Below are positions 2,607-20,816 of a stretch of 38,098 nucleotides of DNA, piece by piece. Location of the stretch: IMG/VR virus record IMGVR_UViG_2061766007_000025, one strand, 5' to 3'. The position numbers and the translations under genes are program-made. Each line of letters begins with the position of its first letter. Position 1 is the first letter of the stretch. Below the pieces are notes generated by a model that saw nothing but the letters and a program-made list of their open reading frames with translations, was not told where the DNA came from and did not search any database. This stretch comes from an uncultured virus (IMG/VR IMGVR_UViG_2061766007_000025). Its lineage: Duplodnaviria > Heunggongvirae > Uroviricota > Caudoviricetes.

Positions 2607-4691
2607 CTACTCTGTCCTTCTTCTACTCCTACCGTCAAATATAAATGGACTCTTAGATTCCTTACTAGCTTTAAGTTTCTGTCTATCTTTGAAATCCTTC
2701 TCATAATCAAATCCTTCACGAAGTTCTTCAGGAATAAATGAAATAGGATATTTAACAGGATCTCTATTAAAGCTAATAGGAGAAACTATATTCTTTCTAA
2801 CCTTCTTAAACTTAAGTCTACGTCCAATAGCCTTCAAGAAAGTATTAGCAATTTCTGCACTTCTATTTCTAGAGTCAGAATCCAAACGTACATCGATTGT
2901 AAATGGGTCTTCTGTATACATCTGTTCAACTAGTCTTCTACCCTGAGGTGATAAACTATGAATCATCATATTAGCTATAACTACTTCAGCTCCTAAGTGA
3001 TTCATGTTGTTAGTCTCCATGTTACCGAATCGAATTGGTGTATTTGGATATAATTCTTTATAATCTTTTCTAGCTCTAGACTTAATATTTTCATTCCTAA
3101 TATTTGTAGCTGATAATGATGTTGCACTATATTTTTCTTCGGCATACTGCTTTAAACGGAAGACATATTGCTTTCCGATTAGTATAGGCTTTCTAGATTT
3201 TATATATCTTGGTTGTCCGTTAGAACCAATCATTACAACTTCTACATCTGTCAGTTTTACAAATGGAAATGCTTTATAAATATCTGCAAGTTTATCTATT
3301 GTCATTGTATCTGATATAGGCCTCATAGATAAGAATATACTACCAGAGTTTATAATAGATTCTATATAGAAAGCTAATTCATCTCTAGTAGATTCGCTCT
3401 TCATATATTCTAGATATTCACCTTGCTGAGGAGAACACATAGAAGTATATTTATATATAAGACTATATGCTTCATCTAAAGAAAGATTATCGGTTACTAT
3501 CTTATTGATTATCTCTGTACCTATATGAGTAAGAGATAATTCAAATAACTGTCCTACATTCTCTCTTCCATACATGGTAGATGTGTTAAAGATAATATCG
3601 GCGTATTCATATTCACCTTTAGAATTCTTAAATCTTGGCATATATATCTGAGGCCACACGTCCGAAACAATTCCTTTACCGCCATATCTGTTTGCTGCTT
3701 TATCTCCAGGACCCATAGTCTTTTCTTCTAAGACTGTTATAGTCATAGTAATAAAGCTGAAATTCTTTTTATCTATATACTGTTTCTTCTCGCATACATC
3801 TTTAGCATAGTCATATAACTTAGTCAATTCATATGAGAATTCATAACCCTGGCTAATATATGGTAATAATGTCTGTACAAACTCTGTAGATTGTCTTTGT
3901 AATTCATTATAATATAACTTTAACTGAGCATAATAGTGATTCTCTAACAACTCAGGATTATTGCAATAAATATCTACATCTATAACTTTTCCATGAACCT
4001 GTTTACATTCATCAGACATAGTTATATTTCTTAATCTATCTACAGACTGATTATAGTAAGACTCTTCTTTCTTCTCTTTTCTTAATGCAATAAGATTAGC
4101 ATTTACTATAGGCTCACCTATATCTGGGAATATCTTATACTGTTTATCATCACCATAAATATTCAAAGGAATATCATTATCATTTATCATGATCTTTACC
4201 GGTTTGATAAGAGGAGATGTAAGTTTACCAGCTGCCACATCAGAGAATATAATCGAGTCTTCCATATTAGAGTCTAGATTATAATAACAAACATTAAAGT
4301 TTCTACCATCTGTTCTGTTCTCATATTCATCGAATGCTAAAGACTTTTGCATTCTAGTACCTTCAGTTACTATATCACTAACATTTAATGAATCTAGATA
4401 ATCATTATTATAAAGATAACCATAAGATTCAGTTACGTACTGATAACTTATTCTTTCAATAACTTCAAGTTTATTAGCATGAATATCTTTTAGTATAAGC
4501 CAATAATGATGATTAGGAGCAAAACTAAATTTAGATATTTTAGCTATAACTTGATAATCTGCTTTTGCTTCAGTAATAGAAGAAGATAAATCACCATATC
4601 TTTGTTCATATCCAGTACTGATTACTGGCATTTCTCCACCCATCAAACCAAGGATATGACTTCTATGAACTGAGTGCATGATTTTTCTTGC
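2607..4691 (-). CDS. phage multisubunit RNA polymerase beta subunit, C-terminal half (probably non-virion RNAP), exon 2
   Basis: GDKAANRYGGKGIVS (RpoB GDK..RHGNKG), DIIFN, RLKQYAEEK, PIRFGNME (RpoB GQRFGEME). Frame is open upstream of the listed Met to GCA AGA AAA ATC (ARKI) at 4691. Confidence 0.9.
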   Translation of the reverse strand, partial: ARKIMHSVHRSHILGLMGGEMPVISTGYEQRYGDLSSSITEAKADYQVIAKISKFSFAPNHHYWLILKDIHANKLEVIERISYQYVTESYGYLYNNDYLDSLNVSDIVTEGTRMQKSLAFDEYENRTDGRNFNVCYYNLDSNMEDSIIFSDVAAGKLTSPLIKPVKIMINDNDIPLNIYGDDKQYKIFPDIGEPIVNANLIALRKEKKEESYYNQSVDRLRNITMSDECKQVHGKVIDVDIYCNNPELLENHYYAQLKLYYNELQRQSTEFVQTLLPYISQGYEFSYELTKLYDYAKDVCEKKQYIDKKNFSFITMTITVLEEKTMGPGDKAANRYGGKGIVSDVWPQIYMPRFKNSKGEYEYADIIFNTSTMYGRENVGQLFELSLTHIGTEIINKIVTDNLSLDEAYSLIYKYTSMCSPQQGEYLEYMKSESTRDELAFYIESIINSGSIFLSMRPISDTMTIDKLADIYKAFPFVKLTDVEVVMIGSNGQPRYIKSRKPILIGKQYVFRLKQYAEEKYSATSLSATNIRNENIKSRARKDYKELYPNTPIRFGNMETNNMNHLGAEVVIANMMIHSLSPQGRRLVEQMYTEDPFTIDVRLDSDSRNRSAEIANTFLKAIGRRLKFKKVRKNIVSPISFNRDPVKYPISFIPEELREGFDYEKDFKDRQKLKASKESKSPFIFDGRSRRRTE

Positions 4692-5114
4692 AAAATTATT
4701 TACTATAAGCTGTATTAATTCTTATAGCGAGATTATAAAAATCTCCACTAGTATTACCTAGTGATTAGACTATTTGGCATCCCTATATAAATAGGGTCGA
4801 GGATTTTTCTTCCACCATTGTATACTTGTGGTTTTACTCTCCCGTCAGGAGATAGTCGTTGAACGTATTTGGATATTGTGTAAAACCAAATGTCGCTGCA
4901 ATAACGGGCCTAGTATTGAAGTTTAGGACTACATATACTCAAGATAATGTAGCTTTTATTTCACCATGCTTCATCTCTACGTTTTTTCTACTTTCGTACA
5001 TTTACGTTTATACTTCATTACACTTTGTATTCCGCTTTAGTGTAGAGCTTTAAGCCTTTACCTGCATTTAACCCTCATGAAACGCACTCATTACTGAATA
5101 CGCTGAGCAAGCAC
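4692..5114 (-). ncRNA. group I intron (IA2-like, no ORF) in the RNAP beta gene; boundaries +/-1 nt
   Basis: On the minus strand: P2 GCGTATTCA-GTAA-TGAGTGCGT; P3 GAGGGTT/AATCCTC; P AAATGCAGG; R GTTCAACGACTATC (about 4851-4864); P7.1 and P7.2 hairpins; P8; S AAATAGTCT; three P9 hairpins. Removal restores LQPFNNLNAG-ARKIM, aligning with RpoB IPFLEHDDANRALM. Confidence 0.88.
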
Positions 5115-5242: not shown

Positions 5243-5467
5243 TTATTTATTTCTATATATAATTCTGCCATTCTCAAGGTTAGGATCTAATACACTTAAA
5301 TCTACTGTGACATTATCACCTTTTACAATCTTAATAGAGTTTAATCTCATCTTCCCACTGAGATTACATGTACATACATGCCCATTCTCTAAACGTACTT
5401 TAAACTTAGCACCTTTAAGTACATCTATGACTTCTCCTTTAATTTCAAATCTATCAGGACTTGCCAT
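5243..5467 (-). CDS. infA: translation initiation factor IF-1
   Basis: EIKGEVIDVLKGAKFKVRLENGHVCTCNLSGKMRLNSIKIVKGDNVTVDLS...GRIIYR closely matches bacterial IF-1; 74 aa. Confidence 0.95.
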   Translation of the reverse strand: MASPDRFEIKGEVIDVLKGAKFKVRLENGHVCTCNLSGKMRLNSIKIVKGDNVTVDLSVLDPNLENGRIIYRNK

Positions 5468-17511: not shown

Positions 17512-18933
17512 ATGGCAGTAGTACAACAACTGCAAGCACCAAAGTTTGTCTATATTCATATGGAGACTTCCAATCAGTCTTTTCTAGATATGAAATATTA
17601 TCTTAAGTCTAAGGGTATACAAAATAATGATTTCTTTTTATCATTATTAGACCCTGGACTGGCAGGAGTAGATCCTAGAGACCCTACTTTATCTACAGCA
17701 ATGAAAGCTAGAGTAATGAATGAATGTAGATTAAATTATTGGTATTTTCTAAGAGAAGTAGTTCGTGTACCGGAACAAGGTGGAGATGTTAATAGTGGTA
17801 AGAGATATAAACTAGATCGTGGTAATCTAGCAATGAATTTCTTATTTGTATTAAATTTCAACCAGTTTGTAGAATTACCTCGTCAGTTTGGTAAAACTAC
17901 TTCTGCAGTAATAAGGTATCTATGGTGTTACAACTTTGGTACATCTAACTCGGAGATTATGTTCTTACATAAAGATCATACAGGATCTAAAAATAACTTA
18001 AAGAGATTAAAAGAGATTCGTTCTGCATTACCATCATACTTGCAGATGGATTCATTAACAGGAGTAGATGGTAAGAAATTAAAAGTTCCAAATACCATAG
18101 TACAAATAGAGCATCCATTTAATAAGAACAAGATTACTACATTTCCTAGTGCAAGAGCAAAAGAGGCTGCAGATAACCTTGGTCGTGGTGCTACTATGCC
18201 TTTACAATACTATGATGAGTTTGCATTTATTCCTTATAATAAAATTGTATACTTAGCAGCAATCCCTGCATTTTCTACTGCATCTAGAAATGCTAAAGCT
18301 AATGGTGCTCCTTATGGTGTATTATTAACTACAACACCAGGAGACTTAACTACAGATTCAGGTTTATATGCATATGAAGAAAGAAATAAAGCAACTCCAT
18401 GGAATGAGAACTATTATGATCTTACAATACAAGAATTAGAGCAATTAAGAGACTCTAATACAAAGAGTTCATTCTTCTTAGTATCATATACATATCAACA
18501 GTTAGGTGCTGGCCCAGAATACTTCAGAAACATGGTAGTACAAATGGGTCAAAACTGGCCAGAGATTAGACGTGAAGTTATGCTCGAATGGGCACAAACT
18601 TCTAATAACTGTCCATTTAGTGTTGAAGATTTGGATACTATAAAGAGATATTGTAAAGATCCTATACGTACAATATTATTTGGTAGATATAAGCAGTATC
18701 AATTCCAAATATATGAAGATGTAGATACTAACTATCCTCCAATAATAGGTGTCGATGTAGCAGGAGCTCTCATGCGAGATTCAAGTGCTATTACAGTAGT
18801 AGACTCTCATACAACAAGAGTTACAGCAGCTCTTAACTGTAACTATATGCCTAGTGATGACTTAGCAGATGTATTATATGAACTAATAACAAAATACTTA
18901 CCTAACGCTGTGTGCCAGATCGAACGCAACGGA
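17512..18933 (+). CDS. terL: terminase large subunit, exon 1
   Basis: ATG 17512 after GGAGGTG; Walker A LPRQFGKT, Walker B YYDEFAF, LTTTPG, RNase H-like IGVDVAG…DSSA, ending IERNG. Confidence 0.92.
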
Positions 18934-18967
18934 GCAAAGGAATGGAGATATAAATTATAACATTAAT

Positions 18968-18979
18968 AACATCTTTATA
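18968..18979 (+). promoter_or_regulatory. late promoter AACA-N6-TA for the intron HNH gene, overlapping an RBS-sequestering hairpin
   Basis: AACA TCTTTA TA; hairpin CTTTATAATAA-AATA-TTATTATAAAG (18973-18998) overlaps AAGGAG. Confidence 0.7.
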
Positions 18980-19009
18980 ATAAAATATTATTATAAAGGA
19001 GAGTTATTT

Positions 19010-19591
19010 ATGTTTAAAGAAATACCTGGTTATGATGGAAATTATAAGATTAATGAAGCCGGTGTAATACTTAATAAAAAAGAACACATGATGAGACCTA
19101 TAATAACAGATAATGGTTATCTTAGAACCGCTTTAGAAATATATGATGAAAATGGTAAACTTATAAAAAGAAATAATGAATTTGTACATAGACTGGTAGC
19201 AAAAACTTTTATACCTAATCCAGATAATCTTCCAATTGTTATGCATTTGGACAATGATACACTTAATCCATGTGTAACTAATTTAAAATGGGGAACTCAA
19301 AAAGAAAATGTTGAGCAGTGTGTTAAAGAAGGAAGAAATAGATGGGGTAGATATTCCGAAGGAACAAGATCATCATTATTTTATAAACAATGCGGTTCAC
19401 CATATAGTATTTATAATAATAAAGAAACTATCTATTGTAGTAATAGAAATGAAGTTGCACTTAGGATAGAGTATGAACTTGTAAGTTTAAAAAATATGGT
19501 AGGTAATGGAAGAGTTATTTCTAAAGGTCCATATCAAGGCTATCAGATAAAAAGAGAAAAATCAGTACCAGCTTTTTTATTTAATAATTAA
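19010..19591 (+). CDS. NUMOD4-HNH homing endonuclease (I-HmuI-like)
   Basis: FKEIPGYDGNYKINEAG (NUMOD4); VHRLVAKTFIPNPDNLPIVMHLDNDTLNPCVTNLKWGTQKEN (HNH_3). Confidence 0.92.
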   Translation: MFKEIPGYDGNYKINEAGVILNKKEHMMRPIITDNGYLRTALEIYDENGKLIKRNNEFVHRLVAKTFIPNPDNLPIVMHLDNDTLNPCVTNLKWGTQKENVEQCVKEGRNRWGRYSEGTRSSLFYKQCGSPYSIYNNKETIYCSNRNEVALRIEYELVSLKNMVGNGRVISKGPYQGYQIKREKSVPAFLFNN

Positions 19592-19994
19592 AATTTATAT
19601 CTCTATGAAGTCTCAGTATATAAAGTAATTTGTATATTCTCCTGTGTTAAAACTGTGAGTTACTGGTCAAGAGCCTTAATAACTACAACATAATCTGCAA
19701 AGATAAGTGTGATATGTTGCGAAAGCAGAAAAAATATTAAGGATGAGTATATGGTTAAATCCTAAGTACTTATTAACAAGCCAGCGTACAGTTACGAAAT
19801 ATCTATTTATATAGATATACGTCTAACGACTATCCCTTAGCGAGGGAGTAAAGCCGCAAGCTAATGGCGGAAGAAAAATCCAGCTCCTTTATTTTTATAT
19901 AAAGGATGTACATATAGTCTGGTCACGTCTTGTAATGAGAGTGATTGTGGAAATGACCACAAATTATAGAGTTGCGCCTATAATTAAACTAAAC

Positions 19995-20816
19995 GGTTTC
20001 GGTGTTTCTGTTATACAGCGTTTATGTAAGACTAGTGTAAAGAAAAATCTTTATTGGAGTATTAAAGACAAAGTTATAGAAGAAACTTTTAATGGTATAA
20101 GATCTGTTAAAAAGACTGCTAAAGTTAGAATATATGGTCTTGATTCGAATAGAGAAGTTCGTGCTAGACTTATAGAAATTCTATATGACCGTGTTCAATA
20201 TCATAAAGATAAATTTATATGTCCTTTATTACATCATGAGATGGAATGTATGGAAGTTAAAAAGAATGGTAAGGTTGAACATAGTGATACTACTCATGAC
20301 GATCAAGTATTTTCTTATCTTATGGCTATGTATGTATGGTATGATGGTGAGAATTTAGCTGAGCGTTATGGAATTCAAAAGAATACTATTAAAACAGATG
20401 AAGATGAAGAAATAGAAGAAGCTGAATATCAAGATCAATTAGAAGCTAGAGCTAAATTAGATATGTCACAAATAGATTATGAAGAAAATAATCCAGAATT
20501 AGCTGAAGCTTTAACTATGATTGAGAATGATAAGTTTATTGATGCTAATATGTTTGCTGATCAGAATAGAATATTAGAGATGCAACAAAGAGAAACTATG
20601 CTTGCTTCTAATAGACAGTTAAGAGATGCGTATTGTAAAGAAACAGGAGTAGATCCTTCTATGTATGGTGCTGTAGATATGAATGTAAATCTTAATACAG
20701 AACTTCCTGATACTTTATTCTTGGATTTAGATGATGATTTATTAGATCCTAATACACCTCTTAAAGTAGATTCACATGTTCAGGGTAATATGGCTGAATG
20801 GTGGAATATACTATAA
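19995..20816 (+). CDS. terL: terminase large subunit, exon 2
   Basis: GFGVSVIQRL…GKVEHSDTTHDDQVFS completes the nuclease domain; the track's start at 19935 lies inside the intron. Confidence 0.88.
   Translation, partial: GFGVSVIQRLCKTSVKKNLYWSIKDKVIEETFNGIRSVKKTAKVRIYGLDSNREVRARLIEILYDRVQYHKDKFICPLLHHEMECMEVKKNGKVEHSDTTHDDQVFSYLMAMYVWYDGENLAERYGIQKNTIKTDEDEEIEEAEYQDQLEARAKLDMSQIDYEENNPELAEALTMIENDKFIDANMFADQNRILEMQQRETMLASNRQLRDAYCKETGVDPSMYGAVDMNVNLNTELPDTLFLDLDDDLLDPNTPLKVDSHVQGNMAEWWNIL

What the first reader, a model, noticed from the sequence alone, without database searches (positions are those of the whole stretch)
18925..20000. terL intron IGS predicts an NG|GF junction, again without the canonical exon U
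Seen: the IGS GAAGUCUC (19607-19614), brought next to the 5' splice site by the 13-bp stem enclosing the HNH ORF, pairs over 8 contiguous positions with ligated GAGGUUUC. This gives ...GAA CGC AAC GGA GGU UUC GGU (ERNGGFG). There is no U near the exon-1 end. With omega-G at 19995 the -1 base is G18934, paired with C. The intron sits inside the nuclease domain of an essential gene, so splicing should be functional.
Basis: partly seen in the sequence, partly recalled or inferred. Interest (0 to 1): 0.75.

Follow-up and report, generated by a model that had tools for sequence, protein, structure and literature searches.

The report
Phage terL intron spliced after G
A self-splicing intron carrying a homing-endonuclease gene splits the DNA-packaging enzyme gene of a cattle-gut giant phage and marks its first cut site with an ordinary G-C pair, not the textbook U-G wobble, a rare trait already shown by experiment in related bacterial IStron elements.

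Summary
terL is split at 18934/19996 by a 1061-nt group I intron (18935-19995) with an HNH gene (19010-19591) in the P1 loop.

- **Junction:** 65 of 66 full-length close homologues read E-x-N-G-G-F/Y-G, so ERNG|GFG is right.
- **Guide sequence:** GAAGUCUC (19607-19614) lies directly 5' of P2 and pairs 8 of 8 with the ligated exons.
- **Covariation:** in 38 of 38 distinct same-site introns the last exon triplet (GAG, GUG or GCG) matches the guide triplet (CUC, CAC or CGC). This needs at least 7 switches on the intron tree.
- **Splice-site pair:** position -1 is always G paired with C. No U-G pair exists.
- **Core fold:** 94.1% of cells pair, against 37-42% for slid controls.

No RNA data exist, so splicing is inferred. 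One G at each intron end leaves a one-base ambiguity; neither placement gives a U.

This is not a first. IS607-type (group B) IStron ribozymes splice after G by experiment (PMC4227781), and this family is their homologue (E 4.7e-36). Earlier notes of this scan report similar non-wobble pairs on other DNA. A second intron of the family in this window, in the RNA polymerase beta gene, also follows a G. Verdict: a well-supported new member of a rare known kind.

The parts
17512..18934 (+). terL exon 1 (ATPase domain and first part of the nuclease domain), ending ...GAA CGC AAC GGA G
   Evidence: ORF. tblastn to jumbo-phage terminase large subunits, 314 records, best 40.9% identity. PHROG terminase families, E 2.2e-53. 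Junction set by intron-less homologues.
18935..19995 (+). Group I intron, 1061 nt, IA2-type architecture
   Evidence: Homology to same-site introns. Core structure counted. nhmmer to an IStron ribozyme and a Twortvirinae stretch. Rfam does not detect it.
18932..18934 (+). Exon strand of P1 (GAG); G18934 is the -1 base
   Evidence: Pairs with C19612-U19613-C19614. Triplets are complementary in 38 of 38 distinct same-site introns with three pair types.
18942..18960 (+). 5' arm of the P1-extension stem that closes off the ORF
   Evidence: Inverted repeat I1, 19 nt, 89% complementary, 15 contiguous pairs over 18942-18956. Duplex energy.
19010..19591 (+). HNH homing-endonuclease ORF (193 aa) in the P1 loop, with AAGGAG upstream
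   Evidence: phrog_59 HNH endonuclease, E 1.5e-29. Pfam NUMOD4 and HNH_3 fall just below their cut-offs. 36-51% identical ORFs in 8 other same-site introns.
19588..19606 (+). 3' arm of the P1-extension stem
19607..19614 (+). Internal guide sequence GAAGUCUC: 19612-19614 form P1, 19607-19611 form P10
   Evidence: Only 8/8 complement of the ligated exons in the intron. Lies directly 5' of P2 as in all 38 relatives.
19616..19637 (+). P2 hairpin (9 bp, GUAA loop)
   Evidence: Helix 2: 99% of cells paired, 9 of 9 pairs with changes on both sides.
19642..19648 (+). P3 5' strand (pairs with 19877-19883; pseudoknot with P7)
   Evidence: Helix 3: 88.8% paired. U19645/C19880 is a mismatch in the window.
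19651..19822 (+). P4-P5-P5a-d-P6-P6a domain (P4 19651-57/19787-93; P5 19663-66/19781-84; P6 19794-96/19820-22; P6a 19799-806/19811-18)
   Evidence: Helices 4-12; coordinates.
19828..19919 (+). Catalytic core: P7 (19828-33/19914-19), P7.1 (19834-37/43-46), P7.2 (19854-57/67-70), P3' (19877-83), P8 (19885-92/19899-906)
   Evidence: Helices 13-16. The first two P7 pairs (G:C, A:U) are invariant in 23 of 23.
19924..19985 (+). P9, P9.1 and P9.2 hairpins
   Evidence: Helices 18-20: 96.5-98.8% paired.
19995..19995 (+). Terminal G of the intron (omega-G)
   Evidence: G at this position in 38 of 38 distinct same-site introns. That it is the omega-G follows from group I chemistry, not from a test here.
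19996..20816 (+). terL exon 2 (rest of the nuclease domain and C-terminus); 19996-20000 form the exon strand of P10
   Evidence: BLASTP to BpSp, Goe21 and S6 TerL. P10 is helix 1. The fold of the junction region matches TerL nuclease domains.

Best explanation
Bases 18935-19995 are a mobile group I intron with IA2-type architecture, inserted in the nuclease domain of the large terminase gene of a cattle-gut jumbo phage. It is inferred, not shown, to be removed from the terL transcript by self-splicing, joining G18934 to G19996 to give ...IERNG-GFGVSVIQ....

The 5' splice site is held by a 3-bp Watson-Crick P1 (G18932-A-G18934 with C19612-U-C19614). The 5' half of the same guide (19607-19611) then aligns the 3' exon in P10. 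A 15-bp stem (18942-56 with 19592-606) closes off the 193-codon HNH homing-endonuclease gene in the P1 loop, which brings the guide next to the cut site. The cut follows a G paired with C. There is no U-G wobble at the site or next to it.

This is a trait of the ribozyme lineage. That lineage also holds a second intron in this window (RNA polymerase beta gene) and the ribozymes of IS607-type (group B) IStrons, which are shown by experiment to splice after G.

Shown here: sequence, structure, covariation, the junction and homology. Inferred: the splicing itself, and that the G at 19995, not the one at 18934, belongs to the intron.
For: **Junction.**
- 65 of 66 homologues of 700 aa or more, among the 120 nearest (67-77% identical), read E-x-N-G-G-F/Y-G.
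- 53 of the 54 shorter ones diverge right after E-x-N-G, always with a codon that starts with G.
- Of 161 sources (160 loci plus the window), 86 are uninterrupted, 55 are interrupted at exactly this site (38 distinct sequences) and 20 are unresolved.

**P1 and the guide sequence.**
- The P2-P4 module was found in 38 of 38 distinct introns.
- The triplet directly 5' of P2 complements exon positions -3 to -1 in 38 of 38: GAG:CUC 21 of 21, GUG:CAC 10 of 10, GCG:CGC 7 of 7.
- A tree built without that triplet needs 7 changes of the exon triplet, at least 5 of them forced by starred branches. The pair was therefore compensated repeatedly.

**P10.** It is contiguous over 2-8 bp, mean 4.1. L027 has a compensatory case: exon GUUAU with guide AUAAC.

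**Core fold.** 112 pairs were counted on 23 sequences. 94.1% of cells pair, against 37-42% when partners are slid. 79 pairs change on both sides. 0 of 500 shuffles reach the observed values.

**Homology.**
- blastn finds 184 phage records, 130 of them Staphylococcus phages.
- The family HMM hits a Selenomonas plasmid stretch beside an IS607 transposase at E 4.7e-36, and a second window site at E 9.4e-39.

**Precedent.** BcISt1 splices after G by RT-PCR and circle-junction sequencing (PMC4227781, passages read).

**Target.** The model of the junction region matches T4 gp17 (E 2.1e-8) and other TerL nuclease domains. E471 and G474 are invariant in 55 aligned sequences.
Against: - No RNA evidence of any kind. 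The run search listed no holder on record as RNA (details under Tried and rejected).
- Rfam's group I model does not match the window, the ORF-free 3' part, or an ORF-less relative, even at E up to 10.
- P1 has only 3 exon pairs.
- An 8/8 complement somewhere in the intron is expected by chance about half the time.
- A G stands at both intron ends, so DNA comparison cannot say which G is exonic. The assignment rests on the universal 3'-terminal G of group I introns.
- The two other introns with an ORF in P1 (L033, L130) show no closing stem better than shuffles: 170 and 185 of 300 shuffles are as low.
- Distant TerL orthologues (BpSp, Goe21, S6) have one residue fewer here, ERN-xx-G. One close homologue, P0098, reads ERNGIG.
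Confidence: 0.82

Rival explanations
1. Same intron and same mRNA, but the cut sites lie one base upstream. Exon 1 ends at A18933, the intron runs G18934-C19994, and exon 2 starts at G19995.
For: A G stands at both ends in 38 of 38 same-site introns, so ligated exons and intron-less alleles fit both placements. Guide pairing also fits both.
Against: The intron would end in C here, and in a variable base in relatives (C, U or G in the list). It would then lack the 3'-terminal G that group I introns use in the second step (established knowledge). Position -1 would be A, U or C paired by Watson-Crick, so still no U-G.
Confidence: 0.07
2. The insertion is not spliced. TerL is made as two polypeptides: exon 1 read through to the stop at 18958-18960, and a second protein starting at ATG 19935.
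For: An ORF from ATG 19935 runs in frame into exon 2. BLASTP extended weakly into it.
Against: No Shine-Dalgarno sequence precedes 19935, unlike the terL and HNH starts. ATG 19935 lies in the P9 loop. In relatives the same frame is closed by stops just upstream of the 3' site (F*GFG, ***KGFG, N*FGFG). Covariation of P1 and P10 with the exons only makes sense if the RNA splices.
Confidence: 0.04
3. The intron is real but decayed or inactive in this genome, for example because of the large ORF in P1 or the U19645/C19880 mismatch in P3. This contig would then be a defective phage.
For: One P3 mismatch in the window. No expression data.
Against: All other 111 modelled pairs are standard pairs in the window. 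The ORF is intact. The P3 pair at that column is unpaired in 13 of 23 family members, so it is a family feature. The contig is covered without differences in three runs of one sample, which may be its source.
Confidence: 0.05

Closest known systems
Group B (IS607-family) IStron ribozymes, e.g. BcISt1 of the Bacillus cereus group and SrISt1 of Selenomonas ruminantium (Tourasse, Stabell and Kolsto 2014, PMC4227781; passages and figure legends read, figures not held)
   Same: IA2-type group I ribozyme. The 5' exon ends in G after a GG-containing site. The exon G's pair with C's of a guide sequence directly 5' of P2, as seen in L166 (GAGG:CCUC) and L167 (GGG:CCC). A long AU-rich stem encloses the passenger ORFs, though at the 3' end there (see different). 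The sequences are homologous: the family HMM hits L167 at E 4.7e-36 over P2-P9. Splicing after G is shown there by experiment.
   Different: The passenger is an HNH homing endonuclease, not an IS607 transposase with TnpB. The element sits at one conserved site of a phage gene and not at scattered sites. The paper places a U-G pair one position into the intron in most group B elements. The window has C18935 opposite U19611, and the +1 base varies (C, U, A) across the 38 relatives, so there is no shifted wobble either. The passenger lies in the P1 loop here; IStrons carry theirs at the 3' end.
Phage IA2 group I introns with homing endonucleases (T4 td, nrdB and sunY; the Staphylococcus phage Twort and K introns). 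Names recalled; relatedness to Twortvirinae DNA shown.
   Same: Same architecture, with P7.1 and P7.2 between P7 and P3'. An endonuclease ORF sits in a peripheral loop. The intron lies in a conserved catalytic region of an essential phage gene. blastn gives 66-72% identity to unannotated stretches of Staphylococcus phage genomes, and the HMM scores E 3.2e-48 to L165.
   Different: [quoted passage not shown] I did not work out the splice sites of the Staphylococcus phage hits.
Group I introns in terL of other phages (Bastillevirinae, PMC11878797; gut 'Jug' jumbo phages, PMC12880540; passages read)
   Same: terL is a known, frequent target. Splicing of terL introns is shown there by in vitro or in vivo assays or by metatranscriptome reads.
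   Different: Different phage clades. The passages I read say nothing about a non-U 5' splice site. I did not see their supplements.
Group I introns with C at -1 (C-G pair). PMC4227781 says 'exceptionally a C'. Hur and Waring 1995 is named in earlier scan notes and was not seen by me.
   Same: A Watson-Crick pair replaces the wobble at the cut site.
   Different: There the guide keeps its G and the exon has a pyrimidine. Here the purine is on the exon side (G-1) and the guide has C.

Membership tests
Group I intron ribozyme | Helices P1-P10 in the canonical order, with the P3/P7 pseudoknot | tested here: met
   112 pairs in 20 helices on 23 sequences. 94.1% of cells pair against 37-42% for slid controls. 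79 pairs change on both sides. 0 of 500 shuffles are as high. In the window, 111 of 112 modelled pairs are standard.
Group I intron ribozyme | The intron ends in G (omega-G) | tested here: met
   G19995. G at that place in 38 of 38 distinct same-site introns. Caveat: a G also ends exon 1, so the assignment rests on the rule itself.
Group I intron ribozyme | [quoted passage not shown] | tested here: not met
   G18934 pairs with C19612. It is G:C in 38 of 38 relatives, and no U-G occurs at +1. The nearest upstream exon T is T18920.
Group I intron ribozyme | Conserved G-C pair in P7 (guanosine-binding site) | tested here: inconclusive
   The first two P7 pairs (G:C, A:U) are invariant in 23 of 23. 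That this pair binds G cannot be shown from sequence.
Group I intron ribozyme | Match to the curated covariance model (Rfam Intron_gpI) | tested here: not met
   No match at gathering score. No match at E up to 10 on 18700-20300, on 19600-20010, or on the ORF-less relative L058.
Group I intron ribozyme | Self-splicing with guanosine | not testable with these tools
   No listed run is on record as RNA.
Subgroup IA2 | P7.1 and P7.2 hairpins between P7 and P3' | tested here: met
   Helices 14 and 15: 100% and 97.8% paired, each with 3 pairs changed on both sides. That these helices define IA2 is recalled; PMC4227781 lists them as subdomains of its IA2 IStron ribozymes.
Group B (IS607-type) IStron | The 5' exon ends in G, paired to C's of a guide directly 5' of P2 | tested here: met
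   Window GAG:CUC. L166 GAGG:CCUC and L167 GGG:CCC were read by eye.
Group B (IS607-type) IStron | Ribozyme sequence homology | tested here: met
   nhmmer of the family HMM: L167 E 4.7e-36 (model positions 16-339), L166 E 8e-15.
Group B (IS607-type) IStron | Carries IS607 transposase and TnpB genes and inserts at scattered sites | tested here: not met
   The only ORF is an HNH endonuclease. The same terL site is occupied in all 55 interrupted sources, the window included. So this is not an IStron.
HNH homing endonuclease | HNH nuclease domain with a NUMOD-type DNA-binding module | tested here: met
   phrog_59, E 1.5e-29. Pfam NUMOD4 scores 21.7 bits (cut-off 23.4) and HNH_3 scores 20.9 bits (cut-off 24.8), both just below their cut-offs. 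Activity not tested.
Large terminase, RNase H-like nuclease domain | Fold of the domain around the insertion site | tested here: met
   Model of an intron-less relative (L108 stretch, 270 aa, pLDDT 80.7). Foldseek: T4 gp17 E 2.1e-8, RB49 gp17 nuclease domain E 4.7e-6, G20c nuclease E 5.3e-6. Sequence searches of PDB found nothing.

The most novel reading that the evidence does not exclude
This ribozyme lineage (phage homing introns in terL and RNA polymerase genes, plus IS607 IStrons) has given up the wobble pair altogether. The 5' cut site would be set by a 3-bp Watson-Crick P1 whose last G:C pair abuts an internal loop. Its middle pair is free to change, so the intron can follow synonymous drift of its target or be retargeted. 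That implies a way of reading the cut site other than the classical J4/5 wobble receptor. It would also suggest that IStrons took their ribozyme from this phage-intron lineage, or the reverse.
Probability: 0.45. Interest if true: 0.6.

Novelty: new member of a known kind. Interest (0 to 1): 0.45.

Why it matters
The U-G wobble at the 5' splice site is treated as a near-universal rule of group I introns and is used to place splice sites in annotation. This case is a natural, well-replicated data set in which the rule fails: 38 distinct introns at one site, at least 7 compensated switches, and a second site in the same phage. The ribozyme is otherwise canonical.

It links classical homing introns of phages to the IStron ribozymes that are known to cut after G. 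It therefore offers small ORF-less members (388 nt) as convenient substrates for asking how the cut site is recognised without a wobble.

In practice, Rfam's model misses the whole family. Split terL and RNA polymerase genes in gut jumbo phages will be mis-annotated unless a family-specific model is used.

Tried and rejected
- **RNA evidence.** The run search listed no holder on record as RNA; 14 of 15 rows are guessed DNA and one is of unknown kind. Laying contigs of 4 DNA runs gave no joint across 18934/19996. This says nothing on expression.
- **Rfam.** No group I match in four searches.
- **Unconstrained guide search.** Searching whole introns for the best exon complement often picked the 5' strand of P7.2 (AGAACCUC) and not the guide. 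I therefore anchored the guide by its position before P2. The likeness of the 3' strand of P7.2 (AAUGGAGG) to the exon does not covary with the exon (window: GGCGG against exon GGAGG). I take it as chance.
- **Degenerate exon copy.** I considered that 19935-19994 might be a degenerate copy of the exon 1 end, or the start of a second TerL polypeptide. I rejected this: the stretch is P9-P9.2 RNA with covariation, and the frame is closed in relatives.
- **ERNGFG product.** It would need a cut after G18931. Nothing in the guide pairs there, and 65 of 66 close full-length homologues have GG.
- **PDB by sequence.** No hit for P0001 or for profile A1. A fold search was used instead.
- **Closing stem as a general feature.** It is not supported in L033 or L130.
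- **Staphylococcus phage relative L165.** I could not place its splice sites by eye and dropped it.
- **Hur and Waring 1995.** My search did not find the paper.
- **Literature on this case.** Searches that found no paper on a G-ending 5' exon in a phage homing intron. Only titles, abstracts and the named passages were read.
Full report
**What is there.** The window carries a large terminase gene in two pieces.
- Exon 1 runs from ATG 17512 and reads ...GAA CGC AAC GGA G at 18922-18934.
- A 193-codon ORF with a strong AAGGAG site lies at 19010-19591.
- The terL frame resumes at ...AAACG|GTTTCGGT (19991-20003) and runs to 20816.

Exon 1 matches terminase large subunits of jumbo phages: 314 phage records, best Bacillus phage BpSp at 40.9%, and PHROG terminase families at E 2.2e-53. 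The inner ORF is an HNH endonuclease: phrog_59 at E 1.5e-29, with Pfam NUMOD4 and HNH_3 just under their cut-offs.

**The junction.** Among the 120 nearest homologues (67-77% identical; 1333 had E at or below 0.001), 66 have 700 residues or more. Of these, 65 read E-x-N-G-G-F/Y-G. One (P0098) reads ERNGIG. Of the 54 shorter proteins, 53 break off right after E-x-N-G, always into a codon that begins with G (V 30, E 19, A 3, D 1).

I fetched 160 loci around relatives and anchored both exon ends by local alignment. With the window that makes 161 sources: 86 uninterrupted, 55 interrupted at exactly this spot (38 distinct sequences, window included) and 20 unresolved, mostly contig ends. The two collections overlap, so the raw counts hold duplicates.

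More distant orthologues (BpSp, Goe21, S6) have one residue fewer here, ERN-xx-G. The second glycine is thus a feature of this clade.

**The intron is a group I ribozyme, although Rfam misses it.** Rfam gave no group I match at gathering score, and none at E up to 10 on the region, on the ORF-free 3' part, or on an ORF-less relative.
- The 3' 405 bases match 184 phage records by blastn. Of these, 130 are Staphylococcus phages, at 66-72% identity.
- All 38 same-site introns share a P2-P4 module.
- I aligned the window's 19604-20005 with 22 relatives (A2) and wrote a structure from the window sequence. It holds P2, P3, P4, P5, P5a-d, P6/P6a, P7, P7.1, P7.2, P8, P9, P9.1, P9.2 and P10, with P3/P7 as a pseudoknot.
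- On 112 pairs, 94.1% of cells form standard pairs, against 37-42% when partners are slid by 1-3 columns. 79 pairs show changes on both sides. 0 of 500 shuffles reach any observed measure.
- P7.1 and P7.2 give the IA2-type layout.
- The window has 111 of 112 pairs intact. The exception is U19645/C19880 in P3, a column that is unpaired in 13 of 23 relatives.

**P1, P10 and the missing U.** GAAGUCUC (19607-19614) sits directly 5' of P2. It is the only 8/8 complement of the ligated exons in the intron. Taken alone this is weak: 0.69 such sites are expected per shuffled intron. It occupies the one functional position, at about 6.5e-4 per position.

The comparative evidence is strong.
- In 38 of 38 distinct introns the triplet before P2 complements exon positions -3 to -1: GAG:CUC 21 of 21, GUG:CAC 10 of 10, GCG:CGC 7 of 7.
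- The variable base is the synonymous third position of the first Gly codon.
- On a tree of the intron bodies, built without the triplet, the exon triplet changes at least 7 times, with 5 or more changes forced by well-supported branches. The shuffled mean is 15.2. Near-identical introns differ in both partners, for example L049 against L059 and L074/L075 against L076.
- P10 is contiguous over 2-8 bp, mean 4.1. Its first two pairs form in 23 of 23 sequences. L027 shows a compensatory case: exon GUUAU with guide AUAAC.
- Position -1 is G paired with C in all 38.
- The first intron base varies (C, U, A) and does not form a U-G with the facing guide base.

**A one-base ambiguity.** Every allele has a G at both ends (exon ...GGN G [intron] G GNTTY). 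Cutting one base upstream at both sites would give the same mRNA. That reading leaves the intron ending in C here, and in a variable base elsewhere, without the terminal G that group I chemistry needs. I give it 0.07. Position -1 would then be A, so there is no U in either case.

**The ORF and its stem.** A 19-nt inverted repeat (18942-18960 with 19588-19606, 89% complementary, 15 contiguous pairs) encloses the ORF and ends at the base before the guide. Its energy is -21.4 against -13.6 +/- 3.3 for shuffles, with 8 of 300 as low.

Homologous HNH ORFs (36-51% identical) occur in 8 other same-site introns, 9 ORFs in all. Three lie in the P1 loop of two introns (L033, and L130 with two in tandem). 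Six lie in the P6a loop (L037, L009, L026, L144, L088, L027). L033 and L130 show no closing stem better than shuffles, so the stem is a feature of this intron and not of the family.

**The target.** A model of the 270 residues around the junction of an intron-less relative (pLDDT 80.7) matches T4 gp17 (E 2.1e-8), the RB49 gp17 nuclease domain and the G20c and P74-26 nuclease domains. The junction follows the invariant Glu of ...IERNGG... by three residues (E471 and G474 are invariant in 55 sequences). That this Glu is catalytic is inferred by analogy and was not tested.

**What is known.** Tourasse, Stabell and Kolsto (2014, PMC4227781; passages and legends read) state that the last 5' exon base is 'virtually always a U (or exceptionally a C)'. 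They also report that group B (IS607-type) IStrons end their 5' exon in G. For BcISt1 they showed this by RT-PCR and circle junctions.

The present family is homologous to those ribozymes.
- blastn finds partial matches in Clostridium, Selenomonas, Enterococcus and Clostridioides plasmids.
- The family HMM hits a Selenomonas plasmid stretch next to an IS607 transposase at E 4.7e-36, spanning P2 to P9.
- Those elements have the same P1 design: GAGG:CCUC and GGG:CCC directly 5' of P2.
- A difference: most group B IStrons keep a U-G pair shifted one position into the intron. The terL family does not.

Group I introns in terL are themselves ordinary (PMC11878797, PMC12880540; passages read). Four literature searches turned up no paper describing a G-ending 5' exon in a phage homing intron. 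I read only listings and the passages named, and I did not see the supplements of those papers. Earlier notes of this scan report non-wobble 5' pairs in other phage introns, including one G-C case filed next to the same IStrons. I did not test those notes.

**A second intron.** The family HMM also hits 5107-4749 on the minus strand at E 9.4e-39. This splits the RNA polymerase beta gene. Intron-less orthologues read ...NAGARKIMHS.... That places the junction at ...GCAGGGG|UGCUUG-CUC-A-P2... and ...UUUUG|CAAGA. P1 is GGG:CUC, P10 is CAAG:CUUG, and -1 is again G, whichever of the two G's is counted as exonic.

**Verdict.** Splicing remains inferred, because no RNA data are available. The missing wobble is real and is a trait of the lineage. 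It has an experimental precedent in homologous IStron ribozymes, so this is a well-documented new member of a rare known kind.

Noticed in passing
window 4687-5112, minus strand (approximate intron limits); exon 1 from ATG 5224, exon 2 ORF to 2607: A second intron of the same ribozyme family, with no ORF, splits the RNA polymerase beta-subunit gene. Intron-less orthologues fix the junction NAG|ARKIM. P1 is GGG:CUC, P10 is CAAG:CUUG, and the 5' exon again ends in G.
   Followed up: partly
window 5246-5467, minus strand: A phage-encoded homologue of translation initiation factor IF-1 (Pfam eIF-1a, E 5e-18), just upstream of the RNA polymerase beta gene.
   Followed up: no
L033, L130 (P1 loop); L037, L009, L026, L144, L088, L027 (P6a loop): Homologous HNH endonuclease genes (36-51% identical to the window's) sit in two different loops of same-site terL introns. 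L130 carries two in tandem. This suggests the endonuclease gene moves independently of the ribozyme.
   Followed up: partly
window 19844-19907: Contig depth in the cattle-gut runs jumps from about 15 to 271 over the conserved P7.2-P3'-P8 segment, with many loose ends at 19845 and 19881. Many other introns of this family share the segment in the same metagenome.
   Followed up: no
window 19850-19873 and relatives: The 3' strand of P7.2 and its flank (UAAUGGNGGAAG) resembles the ligated exon (AAYGGNGG), and the 5' strand resembles the guide. They do not covary with the exon, so I take it as chance.
   Followed up: partly
L004 (Staphylococcus phage MarsHill, 3152-3753 of the locus): The terL of this jumbo phage is annotated as two terminase CDSs about 600 bases apart, at a different place in the gene. 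This is another likely terL intron. The family HMM did not hit it at E up to 0.01.
   Followed up: no
L165 1490-1890 and about 2030 onward: A Silviavirus (Twortvirinae) genome holds an unannotated stretch matching the family HMM at E 3.2e-48. It seems to be followed by the P2 of a second intron. Its guide triplet appears to be GCC, facing an exon that ends GGC. Splice sites were not resolved.
   Followed up: no
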